Part shown: one piece after another, positions 13,067 to 43,934 of the stretch
Layout: every line of letters begins with the position of its first letter
How positions within the stretch are numbered: the stretch's first letter is position 1
Assembly (NCBI GenBank): GCA_016934315.1
Contig: JAFGSY010000011.1
Span: 493-64,492, forward strand
Direction: 5' to 3'
Source: Candidatus Anaeroferrophillus wilburensis
GTDB lineage: Bacteria; Desulfobacterota; Anaeroferrophillalia; Anaeroferrophillales; Anaeroferrophillaceae
DNA length: 64,000 nucleotides
Notes under the pieces: generated by a model
What the model saw: only the letters and a program-made list of their open reading frames with translations
Databases searched by the model: none
Told to the model about the DNA's origin: nothing
Position numbers and translations under genes: made by a program

Positions 13067-13459
13067 TCAGACGGTGCCAAGATAGGCAATGCAGGAGATC
13101 TCCACCAGGGCTCCTTTCGGCAGCCGGGCGGCTTCGATGGCCTGGCGGGCCGGCTGCGGGTCTGTGGTGAAATAGCTGCCATATACCTCGTTCATGGCGG
13201 CGAAATCCTCCATGCTTTGGAGAAACACCTCTGTTTTGACCACCTGTGACAGCCCGGCGCCGGCGGCCTTCAGCACTGCCTGCAGGTTTTCCAGCACCTG
13301 CCGGGTCTGTTCCTGGATGCCGCCTGCCACCAGCCGGCCGCCGGCTGGATCCATCGGAATCTGGCCGGCCAGAAAGAGAAAATCACCGGCCCGGATGCCC
13401 TGGGAATAGGGCCCGATAGCCTGGGGGGCGCTGCTGGTTGCTATCCTGCTGATTGTCAT
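13067..13459 (-). CDS. ridA: RidA/YjgF-family reactive-intermediate deaminase
   Basis: 130 aa with the typical RidA core (GPYSQ...AGDFLFLAGQIP...KTEVFL). Confidence 0.88.
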   Translation of the reverse strand: MTISRIATSSAPQAIGPYSQGIRAGDFLFLAGQIPMDPAGGRLVAGGIQEQTRQVLENLQAVLKAAGAGLSQVVKTEVFLQSMEDFAAMNEVYGSYFTTDPQPARQAIEAARLPKGALVEISCIAYLGTV

Positions 13460-18487: not shown

Positions 18488-21184
18488 TTGATTTTGGGGG
18501 AACAGGTTAAAATAAAGGTTTATGAGCTTTCCAGAGAACTGAATCTCAAGGATGCCGATCTGTTGGAGATTATTGCCAGCCTGGAGATTGGAGCCAGTAG
18601 TAAATTCAGTTCTCTGAAATATGAAGATGTTGAGAAAATCAAGACTTATTACCGTGAGCACCAAGGGCCGGCGGTAGTTGAAAAGCGTATTGCTTCTGGG
18701 GCTGTGCGCCGGCGACGGAAAGCTGCCAAGCCAGCGCCGGTAGAAGTACCTGTTGCCGGTGAAGCTCCGGCTGAAGAGCTGCCAGCGGAAGAAGTCCTGC
18801 CAGAAAGTGCTGCCAAGCAGGCCGCCGAGGAGGTTTCTGTCCCTGAACAGGAGGTTCTTGAACCGGTTGCCGAAGAGGTTGCCGCGGAATCGACAGCTGC
18901 CGAGGAAGAGATTGGCGAGCTTGAAGTTGAGCCTGTGCCGCCGGCAGGGGAAGTCACGGTTGAACCGGAGGTCTCAGCCGCCGATGAGGTGAAACCGGAA
19001 ACTCCTCCCGCACCTGAGGCGGTGGAAAAATCGGCCAAAGGTAAAGCCAAGGGAGCACGGGTTATCGGCCGGATTGACCTTGAAAAACTTGAAAAGAAGA
19101 CTGCCGGTCCGGGGCGCCAGCGACCGGTTCGTGAAGCGGCAAAACCTGCTGCCGGGACACGCCAGCGACCGGCTGCGGCAGCCCCCGATGTCGTGGCGCA
19201 GCCTGAAGTGCCGATTGAGGCCAAAAAAATTGGTCGCAAAGGCAAAAAGAAGGCTGAGGTTGTCGAAGAACAGGCTGTTGACGGGCGCCGGAAGAAGCAA
19301 AGCCTGAAAAAATCGGTGATCAAGGATCTGGACCAGCTGGATGGCGCCGGGATGCGTGGTCGTGGTAGAGGTAAAAAAGCCAAAGGCGGCAAAAAGCTTG
19401 GCCAGCAAACGGAAATTACTACTCCCAAGGAGAGCAAACGGGTTGTCAAGATAACGGATGTGGTGTCTGTCGGTGAACTGGCCAAGCGGCTTGGGGTGAA
19501 AGCTTCTGAGGTTATTGCCAGGTTGATGGGGTTGGGAATCATGACCACCATCAATCAGATGATCGATATTGATACCGCTGAACTGATCGCTTCGGAATAC
19601 GGCCATTCGGTGGAGAATGTTGCTTTTGACGAACAGATTCTGCTGGAACAGGCTCCGGATGAGGAAGGATCGCTGCAGCCGCGTCCGCCGGTGGTTACGG
19701 TCATGGGGCATGTTGACCACGGCAAGACATCGCTGCTGGATGCTATTCGGGAAACCAGTGTTGCGGACCGCGAAGCCGGCGGCATTACCCAGCATATCGG
19801 GGCGTACTCGGTAGAATTGCCGAAGGGGAGGATATCCTTTGTTGATACCCCCGGCCATGAGGCCTTTACGACGATGCGCTCCCGTGGGGCCAGTATTACC
19901 GATATCGTTATTCTTGTTGTGGCTGCCGATGACGGGGTGATGCCCCAAACCATCGAATCGATCAATCACGCCCGGGCGGCGCAAGTGCCGATCATTGTGG
20001 CGGTCAATAAAATTGATAAAGCCAACGCCCAGCCTGATGAAGTGAAACGCCAGTTGAGCGAGCATGGTATTGTTGCTGAGGATTGGGGCGGCGATGCCAT
20101 CTTTGTCGAGGTGTCGGCAAAGAAGCTGACTAATATTGATACGTTGCTGGAAATGGTTCTCCTCCAGGCTGAGATGATGGAATTGAAGGCAAATCCCGAT
20201 AAAGCCGGCAAGGGGGTTGTACTTGAGTCAAGGCTCGATAAAGGGAAGGGTCCTGTGGCTACCGTACTGGTTAAGGAAGGGACCCTGCGAGCCGGTGATT
20301 ATATCGTTGCCGGACTTTACAGTGGCCGGATCCGGGCATTAATTGATGACCGCGGCGTCCCGGTTGATACTGCCGGTCCTTCTATTCCGGTGGAAATTCT
20401 TGGTCTGTCGGGAGTGCCGTCTGCCGGTGATGACTTCAATGTTGTCAAGTCGGAAAAAATTGCCAAGGAGCTGGCTGATAATCGCCAGCATCAGTTCAGG
20501 GAACGGGAAATTTCCAAAACCAGTAAAATATCCCTGGAAGATCTTTTTGAACAGATCCAGGAAGGCGAAGTTGAGAAACTTAACGTTATTGTTAAGGCCG
20601 ACGTCCAGGGGTCCCTTGAAGCGGTTACCGATTCATTGAAAAAACTGTCCACCGATAAGGTTAAGGTTGAACCGCTGCATGCGGCGGTGGGCGGCATCAA
20701 GGAAGCTGACGTCATGCTGGCGTCCGCTTCCAATGCAATTATTATTGGTTTTAATGTGCGTCCTGACATGAAGGCCCAGATGCTGGCCGAGCAGGAACAA
20801 GTTGACCTCAGGATGTATTCCATTATCTATGATCTTATTGATAATGTGAAAAAAGCAATGGAAGGTCTGCTGCAGCCGGAGATTAAAGAGATTCATCTGG
20901 GGCGGGCCGAGGTTAAAGAGGTCTTTTCCATCACCAAGATCGGTACTATTGCCGGTTGCCGGGTAACGGATGGCAAAATAAGCAGAAATGCCGGAGTTCG
21001 TCTGCTCCGTGACGATGTGGTGGTCTACGAAGGCAAGATCAGTTCCTTGAAAAGGTTCAAAGATGACGTTAAGGAAGTGCTGAACGGTTACGAGTGCGGC
21101 ATCGGCATTGAAAAGTATAACGACCTGAAAGTTGGCGATGTGATCGAGGCCTACACCACCGAGGAAGTGGCGGCCACGTTATAA
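18488..21184 (+). CDS. infB: translation initiation factor IF-2
   Basis: TTG start at 18488 preceded by a GAAAGGGG SD-like sequence. Low-complexity Ala/Glu/Pro N-terminal region, G-domain GHVDHGKT...DTPGH...NKID, and C-terminal beta-barrels. Confidence 0.93.
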
Positions 21185-39129: not shown

Positions 39130-40998
39130 TCAATTCCGCACCTTTTCCGGTTTGATCAACACCATCAGCATCATAGGCTGATGGAAACTGACCAGTTGCC
39201 GGCGAAACTGCTGGTAGGTGGAATCTGCCGGCAGGATGGTGCGTTTCAGTTCAATGGTTCTGTTGTAGAGCAGGTGATTGCCAGCCATGGCGGCGGTTGT
39301 TTCCCATGTGATGCCGGGCAGTTCTCCGGCAGTGGATAAGGGGATCGTGCTGCAGGTGCTCATGGCCGGCAGGGAGATGGTGAGCTCCAGGTTGTCGGCG
39401 AAAGGGGTGTCAATCATCAGAGCTGTCCGCCGATCCGGCAGGCAGGTTGTGAATTCCCCTGGCAGCGCCGGCGTTGGAATGGTGAAGAGGGAGTATCCGC
39501 CGACCATGGGAAGTGTCCGGGGAATGGTGAAACGGCACTCGATGATAACCGGTTGCTGCAGCTCCTCAAGGCCGCTGGTGGTTAATGACCCGTCTATGAC
39601 CGCCAGCGGATCAATGGCATGGAGAAACCGGGAGGCAGTAATCTGGCGTTCCTCTGGTGACAGATAGCGCCATTGCTTTCTGGCATCCACTGCCGCCTCT
39701 CCGCTAAGTACCGTTTTTATGCTGCCGGCAAGCTGGTTTTCGGCGGTCAGGGAGATGTCCATCTTGGTATGCTGCTGGTTAGGGTAAGAGGTGATGACTG
39801 GCACCAGACTGCCGTCGGCCATGCTCAGTGCCAACTGATCTTCGCAGCCGGTAAAGCCGGGTGGCAGTTCCTGCCGCTCGAAGGAGTAGTCTTTGCTGCG
39901 GCAGCGAACCAGGGGATTGCTCAGCAGTTCCGGAGAGGGGGCGGCTGAAAGATCAGTCAAAAAAATACCGGAGGTGTTGCTCCACAGCAGTGTGGCCGGA
40001 ATCCGAAGGTGCTGGAGGACCTGGTAGAAAAGCAGGGCCAAGTCGGCCGGCGTGCCATATCCCTGGGCCAGCGTTTCTGCTGCTGGCTGTGGGGTCAGGT
40101 CGGTTGCCAGAAAACTGATGGGGTTGGGCGTTATCTGGCGCATCAGCGATTCATACAGCCGGTCGACGGTGGATATCTCCAGGGCAAAGGGCTCCAGGTT
40201 GAGAGCTGTCAAGGTGCCGGCTGATGGGGCGATGCGGTCTGCATACCATGAGGAAACCTGTTGCCAGCTGCCAAAGGTGGAAAGCAACAGGCTGAAGTCC
40301 TGGTTTTCGCTCCGGGGTGTCAGTTGTTCAGGGACCTGTTTGGGCAGCATGACGGCTTCCCAGCAATAGGTGGTCGTTTCGTTTTCGTGCCGCTGTTTTG
40401 TGCCGCTGATGCCTGCGGGTTCCCGAAAATAGAGAGAGAGGCTGTCAGGGACGGTTACGGATACACTTTTTTTGCTGATTGGATCGTCAAGGCGAAACAG
40501 CTCTTCAGCCCAGAACCCGAGGCGGGAGTGGAGGGTCAGTTCAATATCTATGGTGGCCCCGGGAACCACCGACGGCAGGTTGACGATTTTTTGCCGGCTG
40601 TGGGAATGGATGGAAGCATTGGCAGTCCAAGGAGCCAGAATATCATGCACCTCCCCGGTGTCGGCGGCAATCACCGATCCCTCAGGCGTGGTGGTTTCAG
40701 CCTTCTCGATGGTGACGCTCTGGTAACTGTCATTGTAGGCAAGTTTGAAGTCGGCATAGTTCTTTTTACCCTTGTAGGTGATGATTTTACGAACCACATG
40801 AATTTGGAGATCATAACTGCCATTCTGGTTGACCGTGTACCGTTTGTCAATCAACAGGGTTAGGGCGTCGGCATCCTGCAGCCAGTCGGCTGGTGGGGAG
40901 GATGTTGTGCCCCGGGCTGCCGACGTCCCAAGGGTTGCAAAGAGCAGGATGACAAACACGAGCCGTAAAAAATAGTTGCTGTGTCGCTGGGGATGCAT
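39130..40998 (-). CDS. DUF3857 / transglutaminase-like domain protein (catalytic Cys apparently absent)
   Basis: Start trimmed to ATG 40998 (MHPQRH...), followed by a signal peptide. It is a paralogue of the gene at 41949..43934, but the transglutaminase-like segment lacks the GxCxD cysteine. Confidence 0.55.
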   Translation of the reverse strand: MHPQRHSNYFLRLVFVILLFATLGTSAARGTTSSPPADWLQDADALTLLIDKRYTVNQNGSYDLQIHVVRKIITYKGKKNYADFKLAYNDSYQSVTIEKAETTTPEGSVIAADTGEVHDILAPWTANASIHSHSRQKIVNLPSVVPGATIDIELTLHSRLGFWAEELFRLDDPISKKSVSVTVPDSLSLYFREPAGISGTKQRHENETTTYCWEAVMLPKQVPEQLTPRSENQDFSLLLSTFGSWQQVSSWYADRIAPSAGTLTALNLEPFALEISTVDRLYESLMRQITPNPISFLATDLTPQPAAETLAQGYGTPADLALLFYQVLQHLRIPATLLWSNTSGIFLTDLSAAPSPELLSNPLVRCRSKDYSFERQELPPGFTGCEDQLALSMADGSLVPVITSYPNQQHTKMDISLTAENQLAGSIKTVLSGEAAVDARKQWRYLSPEERQITASRFLHAIDPLAVIDGSLTTSGLEELQQPVIIECRFTIPRTLPMVGGYSLFTIPTPALPGEFTTCLPDRRTALMIDTPFADNLELTISLPAMSTCSTIPLSTAGELPGITWETTAAMAGNHLLYNRTIELKRTILPADSTYQQFRRQLVSFHQPMMLMVLIKPEKVRN

Positions 40999-41105
40999 GA
41001 TTTTCTTCCTTTTCCTATTGACAATTTCAATGTGAATTACTAAGGTAATAGCGATTATCAATTCAAAAGCCTGATCTTTCTTCAGGTGCAAAACAGGAGG
41101 CGTAC

Positions 41106-41429
41106 ATGTTTGAAGTTACCGAGGCGGCGCAAAAGGAGATTGCCGCGTATTTTCAGGGAAAAGAATCGTTGCCGATCAGGGTGTTTCTCCAAGAAGGCGG
41201 GTGAAGCGGCCCAGCGATATCGATGGCCATCGATAAGGACAAAAAAGAGAGTGATCATGTGTATGAGATTGCCGGGTTTGAATATCTGGTCGATAAGGAT
41301 TTTATGGTGAAAGCTGCCCCGATCAAGGTAGATTTCAACGGTTTTGGTTTTCAGCTTACCTCCAATGTTCCCATTGCTGGTGGTGGTTCCTGCGGCGGTT
41401 GCGGCTCCAGCAGCTCCTGCTGCAGCTGA
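41106..41429 (+). CDS. IscA/HesB-like Fe-S cluster protein, selenocysteine-containing (in-frame TGA at 41202-41204)
   Basis: Read-through translation gives MFEVTEAAQKEIAAYFQGKESLPIRVFLQEGG-U-SGPAISMAIDKDKKESDHVYEIAGFEYLVDKDFMVKAAPIKVDFNGFGFQLTSNVPIAGGGSCGGCGSSSSCCS. It aligns over its full length with IscA. The TGA sits at the first conserved Cys (IscA ...GCSG...) and a hairpin follows 14 nt downstream. Confidence 0.75.
41215..41238 (+). promoter_or_regulatory. candidate bacterial SECIS hairpin
   Basis: The palindrome TATCGATGGCCATCGATA forms a 7-bp stem with a GGCC loop. It starts 14 nt 3' of the in-frame UGA, within the GCGATATCGATGGCCATCGATAAGG context. Confidence 0.4.
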
Positions 41430-41517
41430 TCCAGATTGCGTGCCGGGTTGTGGCAAAGAGGCAGCACCTGTACAGGTGCTGCCTCTTTTATTGTGTAGTT
41501 GCCGGTTGTGAGGCATA

Positions 41518-41892
41518 TCAGGTAATGATCTTGCCGATATCCTTAGCTCCGGGGACAACAATCCTCGAAGACTGCTGTCGCTGATATTCCTTGGCTTCTT
41601 CGATCATTTTTTCAACGGCGTCATTGACCGCCTGGGGAAAGTTTGTCATTGCTTCTTCCAGGGTTCGGCCGGCAATGGGGCATTGTACCGGCAGCATGCC
41701 GGCCTGGGTCAGCAGCTGGGTGTGGCCGATGAAGATGATTTCTCTGGTTTCATCCACCGTGCCATCGCTTTTGACCGGGATGAGTTTTTTAATCGTTGCC
41801 ATCTGTAAATCGGAAAAAGTTTCTTCGCGATAAAGGTTACTCCGGTCAACAGAGATCTGGTCGGTGAGGTTGGGTTGATTTCCGCTAAACAT
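41518..41892 (-). CDS. hypothetical protein
   Basis: 124-aa ORF with a plausible start and spacing. No recognisable motif. Confidence 0.45.
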   Translation of the reverse strand: MFSGNQPNLTDQISVDRSNLYREETFSDLQMATIKKLIPVKSDGTVDETREIIFIGHTQLLTQAGMLPVQCPIAGRTLEEAMTNFPQAVNDAVEKMIEEAKEYQRQQSSRIVVPGAKDIGKIIT

Positions 41893-41948: not shown

Positions 41949-43934
41949 TCATGGCTTTCTGGTAATCAGAATGGGTAGCAGTACCTCCTGGTTGCGGTCA
42001 TGCTGGAGGGAGGTAATTTCCTGGTACGAGGCAGCTGGGACCTCCAGTTGCTTGAGGGCAAAGGTGCGGGTGATGGTCAGCTGTTCTTCCCCTTTGCCGA
42101 CATAGAGAGTTTGGTAGTTGAAATACTTAGTGTCAATTGCCGTAGCGGGTGGCAGTTCCAGCTGCTGTAACAGAGGGTTGGCGGCAATCTGTTCCTCGAC
42201 AACCGTGCTGTAGGTGTATCCCAGGCGGAGCGGGTAGCTTCTGGTGGTCATATCCGCTTTGCCAAGAATCCAGCGGTCCAGGATGCCGGGGTCGGCCATA
42301 TTGCTGGCCGGCAGGAAAATGCCTCTCTGCTGGTCCAGCCAGCGGATAGCGTCGGGAAGACTGAATGAACAGGAAAAGGTGAACAGAGTTGCCCGGTCAG
42401 CCGGGTCTGACCAGTTGAGATTGGTGACCTTTATTTCCGGCCGCCGCCGCAAAATCATCTGCTCAAGGAAATCTTTCTGTTCTTCCCGGCTGCGGCGCAT
42501 GAGGAGTGAGCGCATGGCGGTGTCGGCGAAACCACGACAGGTGGCGGTGATCGTTCCGGCAAGGCTGTTATCCGGCTGGATCCGGTCATTGATGTGGAGG
42601 GAGAACCGGTTTTCCTCCGGCAGTACCGGCGGTATCAGACTCAGGGAGGTGCCCTGCTGGTCGGCGATCAGATAGGAGGCATCCCGTTCATAATCAGGCA
42701 GCAACTGCCGACTGGTTTCCGATGTAGGATCCATAAACCAGGCCGGTTCACCCTTGCTGTTGCTGGCCACCGTGATGGCATGGTTGAAATAGGGCAGGGG
42801 AATTTCACGATCCAGCTTTTCGTCAAGGCTTATCAGGACCGGGTTGGCTGCAAAACCGGCCAGCCTCAGCATGCTGACCAGCAGGGCGGCCTTGTCGCGG
42901 CACACCCCATGCCGACGGCTGAAAGTCAGGCCAACGTCGTGGGGTTCAAAGCCGGGCCGGTCGGTTTCAGTGGTGATTCCCATATAGCGGACCTGCTGGG
43001 CAACAAAATAGTAGACGGCGGTTATTTTTTCCTCGGCAGTGTGTTTCCCGGCCGTCAAGGTTGCAACCATTTCCGTCATTTCAGGGGTCGGTTTCAGTTT
43101 GGGTTCCACCAGCTCATGGTACCAACGTGATATTTGTTCCCATGAATCAAGGGATGAAAACAGCAGACGCATTGCTACCTGTCTGAGGGGCGGCATCGAG
43201 GGTTCGGGAACCACTGGTGGTACGTCTTTGAAAGTCCAGTTTCTGATCACCAGATTTTTTTCCTTTTCTTCATGATAGCTGACGCAGCCGGCAACCTCAT
43301 CCTTTATCAGGTGGTTGATGGGCAGTGAAGCGGGTCCCTTCAGGGTGAAATGGTAGGTGCGGATGGGAAAGAGATACTGTCCCAACACCATGCCATACAT
43401 CTGGTCAGGGATGATTGTCTTGAAACGTTCCTGCCTGGTCAGGTAATGAATGGTGTCACCGATCTCCAGACCTGGGAGGAAAATGTTGATTGTCCGCTGG
43501 TTGGGATTGTAGATATTCATCCTGCTGTTGCGGGTTGATGTATCCTCCCGGGAGTTCTTTTCAAAGTCAACCGAAAGCAGCCGGCCGTCCGGCTTGATGA
43601 TCTCCAGGAGGGGGATATCCAACTTTGCATAGGAGCGGTTTACCTGGAAAGATAACACGCCATGTTCCTGTTTTCCCTGCTCATCCAATATGGTGAGGAA
43701 AACCTCGTCTTCAGCTCTGGAAGTGCCGTTGGCCGCATAGGTAATGGTTTCTTTTTCCAAAGCCAGGACAGCATGGGCATGGGGATACTGCCTCCTGGTA
43801 ATCTGGGCCAGAAAAGCAAAGTTTTGCGTTGCTGCCGCAGCCGGATAGCTGATGGCCAGGATGGAAAAAAACACCATGGCCGGCACAATGTTGATGAACT
43901 GCTGCCTCATGTGGGAGCTGAATGGTCTGAGCAT
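41949..43934 (-). CDS. DUF3857 / transglutaminase-like cysteine protease domain protein
   Basis: Signal peptide, a DUF3857-like N-terminal beta region, and a transglutaminase core with GVCRDKAALLVSMLRLAG (catalytic Cys). Confidence 0.65.
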   Translation of the reverse strand: MLRPFSSHMRQQFINIVPAMVFFSILAISYPAAAATQNFAFLAQITRRQYPHAHAVLALEKETITYAANGTSRAEDEVFLTILDEQGKQEHGVLSFQVNRSYAKLDIPLLEIIKPDGRLLSVDFEKNSREDTSTRNSRMNIYNPNQRTINIFLPGLEIGDTIHYLTRQERFKTIIPDQMYGMVLGQYLFPIRTYHFTLKGPASLPINHLIKDEVAGCVSYHEEKEKNLVIRNWTFKDVPPVVPEPSMPPLRQVAMRLLFSSLDSWEQISRWYHELVEPKLKPTPEMTEMVATLTAGKHTAEEKITAVYYFVAQQVRYMGITTETDRPGFEPHDVGLTFSRRHGVCRDKAALLVSMLRLAGFAANPVLISLDEKLDREIPLPYFNHAITVASNSKGEPAWFMDPTSETSRQLLPDYERDASYLIADQQGTSLSLIPPVLPEENRFSLHINDRIQPDNSLAGTITATCRGFADTAMRSLLMRRSREEQKDFLEQMILRRRPEIKVTNLNWSDPADRATLFTFSCSFSLPDAIRWLDQQRGIFLPASNMADPGILDRWILGKADMTTRSYPLRLGYTYSTVVEEQIAANPLLQQLELPPATAIDTKYFNYQTLYVGKGEEQLTITRTFALKQLEVPAASYQEITSLQHDRNQEVLLPILITRKP

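What the first reader, a model, noticed from the sequence alone, without database searches (positions are those of the whole stretch)
41106..41429. IscA/HesB-like selenoprotein hidden by an in-frame UGA
Two ORF fragments are in the same frame and separated only by TGA at 41202-41204. Reading through gives a full-length A-type Fe-S carrier. Read-through translation is MFEVTEAAQKEIAAYFQGKESLPIRVFLQEGG-U-SGP..., and the corresponding IscA region is ...LRLGVRTSGCSGM... The UGA falls exactly on the first of the three cluster-ligating cysteines. The other two Cys are retained in the GGGSCGGCG tail. Selenocysteine replacing a catalytic Cys is the rule for true selenoproteins, and a HesB-like selenoprotein family is known from deltaproteobacteria. 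Standard gene callers, and the supplied ORF track, split or miss it. Its presence implies selA/selB/selD/selC elsewhere in the genome and possibly other UGA-interrupted genes.
Basis: partly seen in the sequence, partly recalled or inferred. Interest (0 to 1): 0.7.

Follow-up and report, generated by a model that had tools for sequence, protein, structure and literature searches.

The report
Selenocysteine-containing IscA/HesB protein gene
A small iron-sulfur-carrier-like gene in this sulfate-reducer-type genome has a UGA "stop" codon that is almost certainly read as selenocysteine; it is real and mis-annotated in GenBank, but it belongs to a selenoprotein family that is already known and curated.

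Summary
ORFs 41106-41204 and 41223-41429 share one frame and are separated by a single TGA (41202-41204). Read through, they give a 107-aa protein that passes NCBIfam NF038090 'IscA_HesB_Se' (103.7 bits, cutoff 85) and Pfam PF01521.

The UGA column is Cys (GGCSGP) in all full-length Cys homologues and aligns to the first ligand Cys of solved IscA structures. Of 47 family loci from Desulfobacterota genomes and metagenomes, 33 carry TGA at this codon and 14 carry TGY.

Every UGA form, and no Cys form, has a clean hairpin just downstream with a G-containing apical loop. In the window it is UAUCGAU-GGCC-AUCGAUA (41218-41235), with the same geometry as the E. coli fdhF SECIS. Compensatory stem changes and frozen synonymous sites (p=0.0016) support it.

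TGA is otherwise the commonest stop in the window and also ends this gene, so this is not an alternative genetic code, a sequencing error or a pseudogene. GenBank annotates only the 68-aa C-terminal fragment as 'hypothetical protein'.

HesB-like selenoproteins have been known since 2005-2006, so this is a new, unannotated member of a known kind. The Sec machinery of this genome could not be checked, and none lies in the 64 kb. Side finding: the closest Cys forms lie directly next to selC-selB.

The parts
41018..41023 (+). -35 promoter hexamer TTGACA
   Evidence: Invariant in all five orthologous upstream regions aligned (window, L001, L006, L005, L013). The consensus scan did not call a promoter here because the -10 matches only 3 of 6 positions.
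41041..41046 (+). -10-like hexamer TAAGGT (TAnnnT), 17 nt after the -35
   Evidence: T, A and the final T are invariant across the five orthologues (TATACT, TATAAT, TATTCT, TAGTAT). Promoter function is inferred.
41095..41100 (+). Ribosome-binding site AGGAGG, 5 nt before the ATG
   Evidence: Read directly from the sequence. GGAGG is conserved in L001 and L006.
41106..41429 (+). Full selenoprotein CDS: 107 codons plus stop, Sec at codon 33; IscA/HesB family (NF038090)
41202..41204 (+). In-frame UGA = selenocysteine codon (residue 33, motif GG-U-SGP)
   Evidence: TGA at the same codon in 33 of 47 family loci, TGY (Cys) in the other 14. Aligns to the first ligand Cys of solved IscA structures.
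41218..41235 (+). SECIS-like hairpin: 5' arm UAUCGAU (41218-41224), apical loop GGCC (41225-41228), 3' arm AUCGAUA (41229-41235). It starts 13 nt after the UGA.
   Evidence: Fold. The inner 5 bp pair in 100% of register-A Sec forms, with compensatory changes at two pairs. The stem is broken in Cys forms. Synonymous sites are frozen. Geometry matches the E. coli fdhF SECIS.
41223..41429 (+). Spurious 68-aa ORF from an internal AUG (Met40), which is what GenBank annotates as hypothetical protein JXO49_06305
41391..41426 (+). Cys-rich C-terminal tail CGGCGSSSSCCS (residues 96-107). Cys96 and Cys99 align to the C-terminal ligand pair of IscA.
   Evidence: C96, C99 and C105 are invariant or nearly invariant. 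The tail is disordered in the proxy model.
41427..41429 (+). True stop codon, also UGA, with no SECIS-type hairpin in range behind it
   Evidence: TGA is the commonest stop among long ORFs in the window (26 of 45).
41455..41488 (+). Intrinsic terminator: 15-bp stem, 4-nt loop, then a T-rich tail
   Evidence: Sub-threshold Rfam hits to terminator-containing leader families at the same place.

Best explanation
41106-41429 is one gene, with its own promoter, RBS and terminator, that encodes a 107-residue selenoprotein of the IscA/HesB (A-type Fe-S carrier) superfamily, NCBIfam subfamily NF038090.

Shown or strongly supported: the UGA at 41202-41204 is recoded. The mRNA hairpin 41218-41235 has a 7-bp stem and a GGCC apical loop 20 nt after the UGA, which is what a bacterial SECIS looks like.

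Inferred from the established bacterial mechanism: the hairpin recruits SelB-GTP-Sec-tRNA(Sec) to the ribosome when UGA is in the A site, so selenocysteine is inserted instead of termination. The second UGA, at 41427, has no such element and terminates.

Inferred for the protein: Sec33 occupies the position of the first of the three ligand cysteines of A-type carriers. Together with Cys96 and Cys99 of the flexible Cys-rich tail, it most likely binds a transient Fe-S cluster, or Fe, in a dimer and passes it to apo-proteins. The selenolate would give a more nucleophilic and more labile ligand than the thiolate of the Cys paralogues.

My confidence that this is a genuine Sec-encoding gene is about 0.95. 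My confidence that its role is Fe-S cluster carriage is about 0.5-0.6.
For: Family: NF038090 103.7 bits (cutoff 85) and PF01521 38.3 bits (cutoff 26.3). All 30 of 30 representative relatives match NF038090 best. Solved IscA homologues are hit by sequence, 1nwb at E=7e-11, with the Sec column on their GGCSG Cys and C96/C99 on their C-terminal Cys pair. An AlphaFold model of the 59%-identical Cys homologue P0003 (pLDDT 82) matches IscA 1r94/1s98, the [2Fe-2S]-bound IscA 1x0g, and SufA 2d2a.

Recoding: TGA sits at the same codon in 33 of 47 loci and TGY in 14. Coding sequence is conserved on both sides of it, at 49-75% aa identity with many synonymous differences.

SECIS: every Sec form has at least 5 contiguous loop-closing pairs in one of two registers, and no Cys form exceeds 4. 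The inner five pairs form in 100% of sequences, with compensatory changes CG<->GC and AU<->GC (register A) and GC/UA/AU and CG/UA (register B). In Cys forms only 56-59% of cells pair, and key pairs are broken in 12 of 14 and 14 of 14 sequences, although a nearly identical peptide is encoded. Hairpin codons are frozen at synonymous sites, 5 of 5 against 4 of 22 elsewhere, Fisher p=0.0016. The loop position and its G match the E. coli fdhF SECIS: GGUC at nt 22-25 against GGCC at nt 24-27. Published criteria are met: immediately 3' of the UGA, with a small apical loop containing G (PMC1088965; PMC9312934).

Standard code: TGA ends 26 of 45 long ORFs and this gene itself.

Sec-using lineage: relatives carry tRNA-Sec and SelB beside the Cys paralogue. 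Deltaproteobacteria are the most selenoprotein-rich bacteria and have HesB-like selenoproteins (PMC1794560). A HesB-like selenoprotein was confirmed by 75Se labelling in Methanococcus maripaludis (PMC11097638).
Against: - No selA, selB, selD or tRNA-Sec lies in the 64 kb, and the rest of the MAG could not be searched, so Sec decoding in this particular genome is inferred.
- The hairpin's folding energy alone is not distinguishable from shuffled sequence (z = -0.14 to -0.27).
- No curated Rfam SECIS family matches.
- Within the window's own small clade of four sequences the hairpin is invariant, so compensatory changes are seen only against the sister clade.
- Function: the protein falls below the curated cutoffs of the IscA, SufA and ErpA equivalog models. 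The C-terminal pair is CGGC rather than CGC. The literature states that the function of HesB-like selenoproteins is unclear (PMC11097638; PMC13188914).
Confidence: 0.85

Rival explanations
1. It is a genuine selenoprotein, but not an Fe-S cluster carrier. Sec33 and the Cys-rich tail would instead form a redox-active selenylsulfide (a thiol/selenol oxidoreductase), or handle selenium or sulfur, for example persulfide or perselenide trafficking linked to the selenium-utilisation trait.
For: The literature calls the function of HesB-like selenoproteins unclear, and most prokaryotic selenoproteins are redox proteins (PMC13188914; PMC11097638). The closest Cys paralogues sit between a 350-aa tandem rhodanese and tRNA-Sec/SelB, next to families that NCBI labels '(seleno)protein'. 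The tail has four Cys (CGGCGSSSSCC) instead of the canonical CGC. The fold also matches DsrR, an IscA-like protein of sulfur metabolism. The protein is below the cutoffs of all IscA, SufA and ErpA equivalogs.
Against: All three A-type-carrier ligand positions are retained and nearly invariant. There is no UxxC or CxxU redox motif around the Sec. The sel linkage is confined to one Cys-form subclade, so it may reflect a single inherited arrangement, and it is absent from the window and from the other Sec-form loci. Several loci instead neighbour MvhD/Hdr-type Fe-S proteins, which fits Fe-S maturation.
Confidence: 0.3
2. It is a pseudogene, or a sequencing or assembly error (for example TGC or TGT read as TGA), so nothing functional spans the stop.
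For: The source is a metagenome-assembled genome, where such errors occur. One relative (L048) does carry a frameshifting duplication downstream of the UGA.
Against: The sequence is identical in a second assembly. TGA is at the same codon in 33 loci from different species, with purifying selection on both sides and a co-varying hairpin found only in the TGA forms. The promoter, RBS and terminator are intact.
Confidence: 0.02
3. UGA is decoded by a different route, either as a sense codon under an alternative genetic code (Trp or Gly) or by leaky near-cognate read-through, rather than as selenocysteine.
For: One database translation of an orthologue (P0002) shows W at this position, which reflects a gene caller using a UGA=Trp table.
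Against: TGA terminates 26 of 45 long ORFs in the window, including housekeeping genes and this gene itself. The position is Cys, never Trp or Gly, in all TGY homologues. A SECIS-type hairpin is present. The underlying codon of P0002 is TGA.
Confidence: 0.02
4. Two independent small proteins of 32 aa and 68 aa are made, as annotated.
For: An AUG at 41223 starts the second ORF, and gene callers accept it.
Against: The two pieces align contiguously to single-domain full-length Cys homologues and to one PF01521 domain. No RBS precedes 41223, which lies inside the hairpin. The 68-aa piece lacks the N-terminal helix and first strands of the fold.
Confidence: 0.01

Closest known systems
NCBIfam NF038090 'IscA_HesB_Se' (IscA/HesB family protein, subfamily model)
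   Same: The window protein scores 103.7 bits against the curated cutoff of 85, over the whole model (1-101 of 101). All 30 relatives tested match this model best. It shares the GG[U/C]xGP motif and the CxxCGSSSSCC tail.
   Different: Nothing substantive; this is the family it belongs to. The copy in this MAG is simply not annotated as such: GenBank has a 68-aa 'hypothetical protein'.
HesB-like selenoprotein as catalogued in selenoproteome surveys (TIGR01911 HesB_rel_seleno; Zhang et al. 2006, PMC1794560; 75Se-confirmed in Methanococcus maripaludis, PMC11097638)
   Same: Both are small PF01521-type proteins with Sec replacing the first conserved Cys, motif UxGP, a variable Cys/Gly-rich C-terminus, occurrence in anaerobic deltaproteobacteria, mixed Sec and Cys forms, and SECIS remnants in Cys forms.
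   Different: The window protein reaches only 23.6 bits on TIGR01911 (cutoff 66.35), so it is a sister subfamily rather than a member of that model.
Canonical A-type Fe-S carriers IscA, SufA and ErpA (PF01521; PDB 1s98, 1r94, 1x0g, 2d2a, 1nwb)
   Same: A single ~100-residue PF01521 domain, the same fold (by proxy model), a first ligand residue in the GGCSG loop, and two C-terminal ligand Cys on a disordered tail.
   Different: The first ligand is Sec rather than Cys. The C-terminal pair is spaced CGGC rather than CGC and is followed by a SSSSCC extension. Scores are below the cutoffs of the IscA, SufA and ErpA equivalogs. The gene is free-standing, not in an isc, suf or nif operon.
E. coli fdhF SECIS element (the reference bacterial SECIS)
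   Same: A hairpin inside the coding sequence immediately 3' of the UGA, with a 4-nt apical loop beginning with GG. The fdhF loop GGUC is at nt 22-25 from the U of UGA. The window's loop GGCC is at nt 24-27, and the sister clade has exactly GGUC.
   Different: The window has a shorter, perfectly paired 7-bp stem with no bulged U and no long lower stem. Binding to SelB is untested. Within this one protein family the hairpin occupies two registers, 6 nt apart.

Membership tests
Bacterial selenoprotein gene (SelB/SECIS-dependent UGA recoding) | In-frame UGA aligned with a conserved Cys in homologues | tested here: met
   the column is Cys in all 14 TGY loci and in all full-length database homologues. 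It aligns to the ligand Cys of 1nwb, 2apn and 1s98.
Bacterial selenoprotein gene (SelB/SECIS-dependent UGA recoding) | UGA conserved among orthologues, with coding conservation on both sides | tested here: met
   33 of 47 loci carry TGA. Orthologues share 49-75% aa identity, with synonymous divergence outside the hairpin.
Bacterial selenoprotein gene (SelB/SECIS-dependent UGA recoding) | Stem-loop immediately downstream of the UGA with a small apical loop containing G (bacterial SECIS) | tested here: met
   a 7-bp stem and GGCC loop, present in all Sec forms and absent from Cys forms, with compensatory changes, a synonymous-site freeze, and fdhF-like geometry. MFE z-scores alone are not significant, and there is no Rfam SECIS hit.
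Bacterial selenoprotein gene (SelB/SECIS-dependent UGA recoding) | selA, selB, selC (tRNA-Sec) and selD present in the same genome | not testable with these tools
   Only 64 kb of the MAG is available and it holds none of them. Relatives have tRNA-Sec and SelB.
Bacterial selenoprotein gene (SelB/SECIS-dependent UGA recoding) | Selenium physically incorporated (75Se labelling or mass spectrometry) | not testable with these tools
   This needs an experiment. It has been done only for the distant M. maripaludis HesB-like protein (PMC11097638).
NCBIfam NF038090 IscA_HesB_Se | Whole-protein HMM score at or above the curated cutoff (85 bits) | tested here: met
   103.7 bits, E=5.4e-30, model positions 1-101 of 101 (Sec modelled as Cys).
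TIGR01911 HesB_rel_seleno (HesB-like selenoprotein) | Whole-protein HMM score at or above the curated cutoff (66.35 bits) | tested here: not met
   23.6 bits. It is related but not a member of this model.
A-type Fe-S carriers (ATC; PF01521) | A single complete PF01521 domain of ~100 residues (definition in PMC2682760) | tested here: met
   38.3 bits against a gathering score of 26.3; protein residues 3-91 on profile positions 4-102 of 110.
A-type Fe-S carriers (ATC; PF01521) | Three conserved ligand cysteines, C-Xn-C-G-C (motif recalled from established knowledge of IscA/SufA) | tested here: inconclusive
   position 1 is Sec (Cys in paralogues). Positions 2 and 3 are present as C96 and C99, but spaced C-G-G-C, with one extra residue.
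A-type Fe-S carriers (ATC; PF01521) | IscA/SufA fold | tested here: met
   by proxy: the model of the 59%-identical Cys homologue P0003 matches 1r94, 1s98, 1x0g and 2d2a (probability 1.00, TM 0.62-0.71). The window sequence itself could not be submitted.
A-type Fe-S carriers (ATC; PF01521) | Membership of a specific equivalog (IscA TIGR02011, SufA TIGR01997, ErpA NF010147) | tested here: not met
   32.6, 29.7 and 33.5 bits against cutoffs of 150.6, 136.2 and 117.
A-type Fe-S carriers (ATC; PF01521) | Binds and transfers an Fe-S cluster | not testable with these tools
   This needs biochemistry.

The most novel reading that the evidence does not exclude
The NF038090 branch of the IscA/HesB superfamily may not be a generic Fe-S carrier. 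It may instead be an accessory of the selenium-utilisation trait, for example a selenium/sulfur or Fe-S(e) chaperone serving Sec-dependent Hdr/Mvh-type enzymes or the Sec pathway itself. The lead is that its closest Cys paralogues are wedged between a tandem rhodanese and selC-selB, inside a cluster of '(seleno)protein' families, in four independent contigs. A smaller, better-supported novelty is that within this single family the SECIS hairpin has moved two codons downstream relative to a fixed UGA. This gives a natural series for testing how much UGA-to-SECIS spacing SelB tolerates.
Probability: 0.12. Interest if true: 0.6.

Novelty: new member of a known kind. Interest (0 to 1): 0.28.

Why it matters
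**Annotation.** The GenBank record calls a 68-aa 'hypothetical protein' where a 107-aa selenoprotein is encoded. The same split recurs in most of the 33 UGA-form loci found here. Metagenome gene catalogues therefore undercount this family and hide the Sec trait of these Desulfobacterota.

**Biology.** It adds a well-controlled comparative set for a selenoprotein whose function is still called unclear: 33 Sec forms and 14 Cys forms, two SECIS registers, and SECIS decay in the Cys forms. In this family selenium would sit as a metal-cluster ligand rather than in a classical redox motif.

None of this changes current understanding. HesB-like selenoproteins and their Sec/Cys dynamics were described in 2005-2006, and the family has a curated NCBI model.

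Tried and rejected
- **Single-sequence folding of the region downstream of the UGA**. The energies are no better than shuffled sequence (z -0.27 and -0.14), so thermodynamics alone does not support a SECIS. The comparative evidence was needed.
- **Rfam, at gathering and permissive thresholds**. No SECIS family hit; only terminator-like matches at 41455-41488.
- **Sec machinery in the window.** Only tRNA-Met was found. Ten ORFs sized like SelA, SelB or SelD are housekeeping genes. tblastn with E. coli SelA, SelB and SelD hits only the IF-2 GTPase domain at 19691-20404.
- **Other UGA-interrupted genes in the window.** 140 mechanical candidates were listed, and the few outside long ORFs were translated. 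The best is a RidA-like protein that is already full length at its TGA. The rest read as out-of-frame noise. None was accepted.
It was repeated with a tighter alignment, A3.
The Cys homologue P0003 was used as a proxy.
- **The 124-aa gene downstream (41518-41892, minus strand)** is not related to the 124-aa gene in the sel-linked clusters and has no NCBIfam hit.
- **A second protein-database search with SelB to find this MAG's own SelB** was considered and not run. NCBI titles of named proteins carry no locus tag, so the genome could not be recognised among the hits.
- **L048** was excluded from the protein sets because a duplication frameshifts it after the UGA.
Full report
**1. The observation**

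- An ATG at 41106 is preceded by AGGAGG at 41095-41100.
- It opens a frame that meets TGA at 41202-41204 and continues without any other stop to TGA at 41427-41429.
- Mechanical ORF calling gives a 32-aa piece (41106-41204) and a 68-aa piece that starts at an internal ATG (41223-41429).
- The read-through translation is MFEVTEAAQKEIAAYFQGKESLPIRVFLQEGG-U-SGPAISMAIDKDKKESDHVYEIAGFEYLVDKDFMVKAAPIKVDFNGFGFQLTSNVPIAGGGSCGGCGSSSSCCS.

The window comes from GenBank MAG GCA_016938755.1, contig JAFGTY010000049.1. Only the 68-aa fragment is annotated there, as 'hypothetical protein JXO49_06305'. An independent Logan assembly of run SRR13394437 has the identical gene sequence, including the TGA.

**2. 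What the protein is**

With Sec written as Cys, the protein passes the curated cutoff of NCBIfam NF038090 'IscA_HesB_Se' (103.7 bits against 85, full model length) and of Pfam PF01521 (38.3 against 26.3).

It falls below the cutoffs of several related models:
- the IscA, SufA and ErpA equivalogs;
- TIGR00049 (46 bits against 58.8);
- TIGR01911 'HesB_rel_seleno' (23.6 bits against 66.35).

Against solved structures it matches Aquifex IscA 1nwb (E=7e-11), HI1723 2apn and E. coli IscA 1s98.
- Residue 33 lies on their GGCSG/SGCSG cysteine.
- C96 and C99 lie on their C-terminal Cys pair, with one extra residue between them (CGGC against CGC).

An AlphaFold model of the closest full-length Cys homologue was used instead (P0003, 59% identical, pLDDT 82, Cys-rich tail disordered). 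It matches IscA 1r94 and 1s98, [2Fe-2S]-bound IscA 1x0g, SufA 2d2a and DsrR 2k4z.

**3. Is the UGA a selenocysteine codon?**

Homologues.
- Among database proteins, every full-length homologue has Cys in the UGA column (GGCSGP).
- One has W, and its underlying codon proved to be TGA.
- Several others are 67-69-aa fragments starting at the same internal Met. Fetching their DNA showed the same 32+68 split with TGA at the same codon.

A scan of species-representative genomes returned 45 loci, almost all Desulfobacterota. Together with the window and the metagenome loci, 33 of 47 carry TGA and 14 carry TGC or TGT at this codon.

The genetic code is standard. TGA ends 26 of 45 long ORFs in the window and ends this gene too.

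The hairpin. Downstream of the UGA, every Sec form has a clean hairpin in one of two registers (numbering from the U of UGA):
- Register A: stem 17-23 with 28-34, loop GGCC or GGUC. This is found in the window's clade and a Tharpella-like clade.
- Register B: stem 22-28 with 34-40, loop UGGAU or UGGAC. This is found in the other Sec forms.

All 33 Sec forms have at least 5 contiguous loop-closing pairs in their register, and no Cys form exceeds 4.

Pair counts:
- Register A: the five inner pairs form in 100% of sequences, with compensatory changes at 21-30 (CG against GC) and 18-33 (AU against GC).
- Register B: the five inner pairs also form in 100% of sequences, with compensatory changes at 24-38 (GC/UA/AU/GU) and 26-36 (CG/UA).
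- Cys forms: only 56-59% of cells pair. Pair 27-35 is broken in 12 of 14 sequences and pair 19-32 in 14 of 14, although these genes encode almost the same peptide (LALDE).

Further support for the window's hairpin:
- Within the window's own clade of four orthologues, all 5 degenerate codons inside the hairpin are identical, against 4 of 22 elsewhere (Fisher p=0.0016).
- The window's hairpin (41218-41235, UAUCGAU-GGCC-AUCGAUA) has the geometry of the E. coli fdhF SECIS, which I extracted for comparison: the fdhF loop GGUC is at nt 22-25, and the window's loop is at nt 24-27.
- Only 0.5% of in-frame positions in ten long genes of the window are followed by a comparable hairpin.

Caveats. Folding energy alone is not significant, and no Rfam SECIS model matches.

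**4. Gene context**

The gene is a self-contained transcription unit.
- A -35 TTGACA (41018-41023) is invariant in five orthologues, with a TAnnnT -10 element 17 nt downstream.
- A 15-bp-stem terminator lies at 41455-41488.

Its neighbours are two DUF3857/transglutaminase-like genes and a conserved 124-aa gene of unknown function. These are syntenic in the nearest relatives L001, L004 and L007, and none is an isc or suf gene.

No sel gene, no tRNA-Sec and no other credible UGA-interrupted gene lies in the 64 kb.

**5. Mechanism**

- Shown or strongly supported by sequence comparison: there is one gene, the UGA is conserved, a SECIS-type hairpin is specific to the UGA forms, the Sec occupies the first ligand Cys position, and the protein has the A-type-carrier fold and family.
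- Inferred from the established bacterial pathway: SelB bound to the hairpin delivers Sec-tRNA(Sec) to the UGA at codon 33. The terminal UGA lacks such an element and stops translation.
- Inferred from the IscA/SufA precedent: Sec33, Cys96 and Cys99 ligate a transient Fe-S cluster or Fe in a dimer for transfer to client proteins.

In several relatives the gene neighbours MvhD/Hdr-type Fe-S proteins. The function of HesB-like selenoproteins is explicitly called unclear in the literature (PMC11097638). I therefore hold the carrier role at about 0.5-0.6 and a redox or Se/S-handling role at about 0.3.

**6. Comparison with what is known, and novelty**

HesB-like proteins are an established selenoprotein family.
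- Eleven were listed in 2006, in Desulfovibrio, Geobacter, Syntrophus and Syntrophobacter among others, with Sec-to-Cys conversions and SECIS remnants (PMC1794560).
- The published motif is UxGP (PMC13188914).
- 75Se labelling confirmed one in M. maripaludis (PMC11097638).

NCBI curates a model, NF038090, that this protein passes. The finding is therefore a new, mis-annotated member of a known kind.

**7. Things seen on the way**

(a) selC linkage. In the Cys-form subclade closest to the window's clade, the hesB-like gene is followed within 17-29 nt by tRNA-Sec and then SelB (TIGR00475, 268 bits). It is preceded by a 350-aa tandem rhodanese, an OS_HP2 '(seleno)protein', an MvhD/VhuD-like protein and an HmcF/TmcB-like Fe-S protein (L010, L011, L056, L057). 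In L054/L055 there is no tRNA-Sec and only the C-terminal half of SelB remains. In L010 only the last ~100 residues of SelB remain. This looks like decay of the Sec trait alongside a Cys form.

(b) SECIS shift. A neighbour-joining tree places register A as one derived clade. Cys forms fall in at least three clusters nested among Sec forms (a rough tree, midpoint-rooted). This suggests that the SECIS shifted by two codons once and that Sec-to-Cys changes happened repeatedly.

I found no paper describing the hesB-selC-selB linkage.

Noticed in passing
L010 6001-6420; L011 664-3000; L056 4902-8380; L057 3677-7155: In the Cys-form subclade closest to the window's clade, the IscA/HesB-family gene lies directly upstream (17-29 nt) of tRNA-Sec, followed by SelB in L011, L056 and L057. 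It lies directly downstream of a 350-aa tandem-rhodanese gene, within a cluster of an OS_HP2 '(seleno)protein', an MvhD/VhuD-like protein and an HmcF/TmcB-like Fe-S protein. I found no paper describing this linkage.
   Followed up: partly
L054 6486-7469; L055 2189-3172; L010 6426-6722: SelB looks decayed next to Cys forms. In L054/L055 (Dissulfuribacterales) only the C-terminal ~312 residues of SelB remain and tRNA-Sec is absent. In L010 tRNA-Sec is present but only the last ~100 residues of SelB follow it. This may be a snapshot of loss of the Sec trait.
   Followed up: partly
Sec-form loci, nt 17-40 downstream of the UGA (alignments A4 and A5): Within one protein family the SECIS hairpin occupies two registers 6 nt (two codons) apart, with the UGA fixed. 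Loop GGYC is at nt 24-27 in one clade (which includes the window), and loop UGGAU is at nt 29-33 in all the others. A rough tree makes the first register a single derived clade.
   Followed up: yes
Cys-form loci L012, L028, L034, L038-L040, L042, L043, nt 22-40 after the Cys codon: Several Cys forms keep a near-miss of the register-B hairpin. For example GGCCC-UGGAC-GAGCC has a single C·A mismatch, and L028 keeps only the 5' arm. These look like SECIS remnants after Sec-to-Cys conversion, as reported for another HesB-like protein in PMC1794560.
   Followed up: partly
window 41518-41892 (minus strand): A 124-aa ORF converges on the selenoprotein gene. It is conserved and syntenic in L001/L007 (60% identity) and L004 (75%), and it has no NCBIfam hit and no Pfam hit on record. 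Function unknown.
   Followed up: partly
window 39130-40998 and 41949-43934 (both minus strand): Two large paralogous DUF3857 / transglutaminase-core proteins (about 620 and 661 aa) flank the selenoprotein gene. The arrangement is conserved in the nearest relative, L001/L007.
   Followed up: no
L048 907-1300: This UGA-form orthologue carries a short duplication (…KDTDYV…KDTDYV…) that frameshifts the gene after the hairpin. It is either an assembly error or a recent pseudogene.
   Followed up: no
L006 201-488: The orthologue from ENA sample ERZ23499206 ends early (…GGACG, then TAA), so it keeps only one tail Cys. Its database translation (P0002) shows W at the Sec codon, meaning it was called with a UGA=Trp table.
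   Followed up: no
window 13070-13459 (minus strand): A RidA/YjgF-like ORF of 130 aa ends at a TGA that is followed by 81 further open codons in frame. The protein is already full length, so the TGA was judged an ordinary stop and not a second selenoprotein. This judgement was made by eye, without a family search.
   Followed up: partly
window 41033-41065: An imperfect inverted repeat (TGAATTACTAA / TTATCAATTCA, 82% complementary, 11 nt apart) overlaps the -10 region and the 5' UTR of the selenoprotein gene. It might be an operator, but it is not obviously conserved in the orthologues.
   Followed up: no
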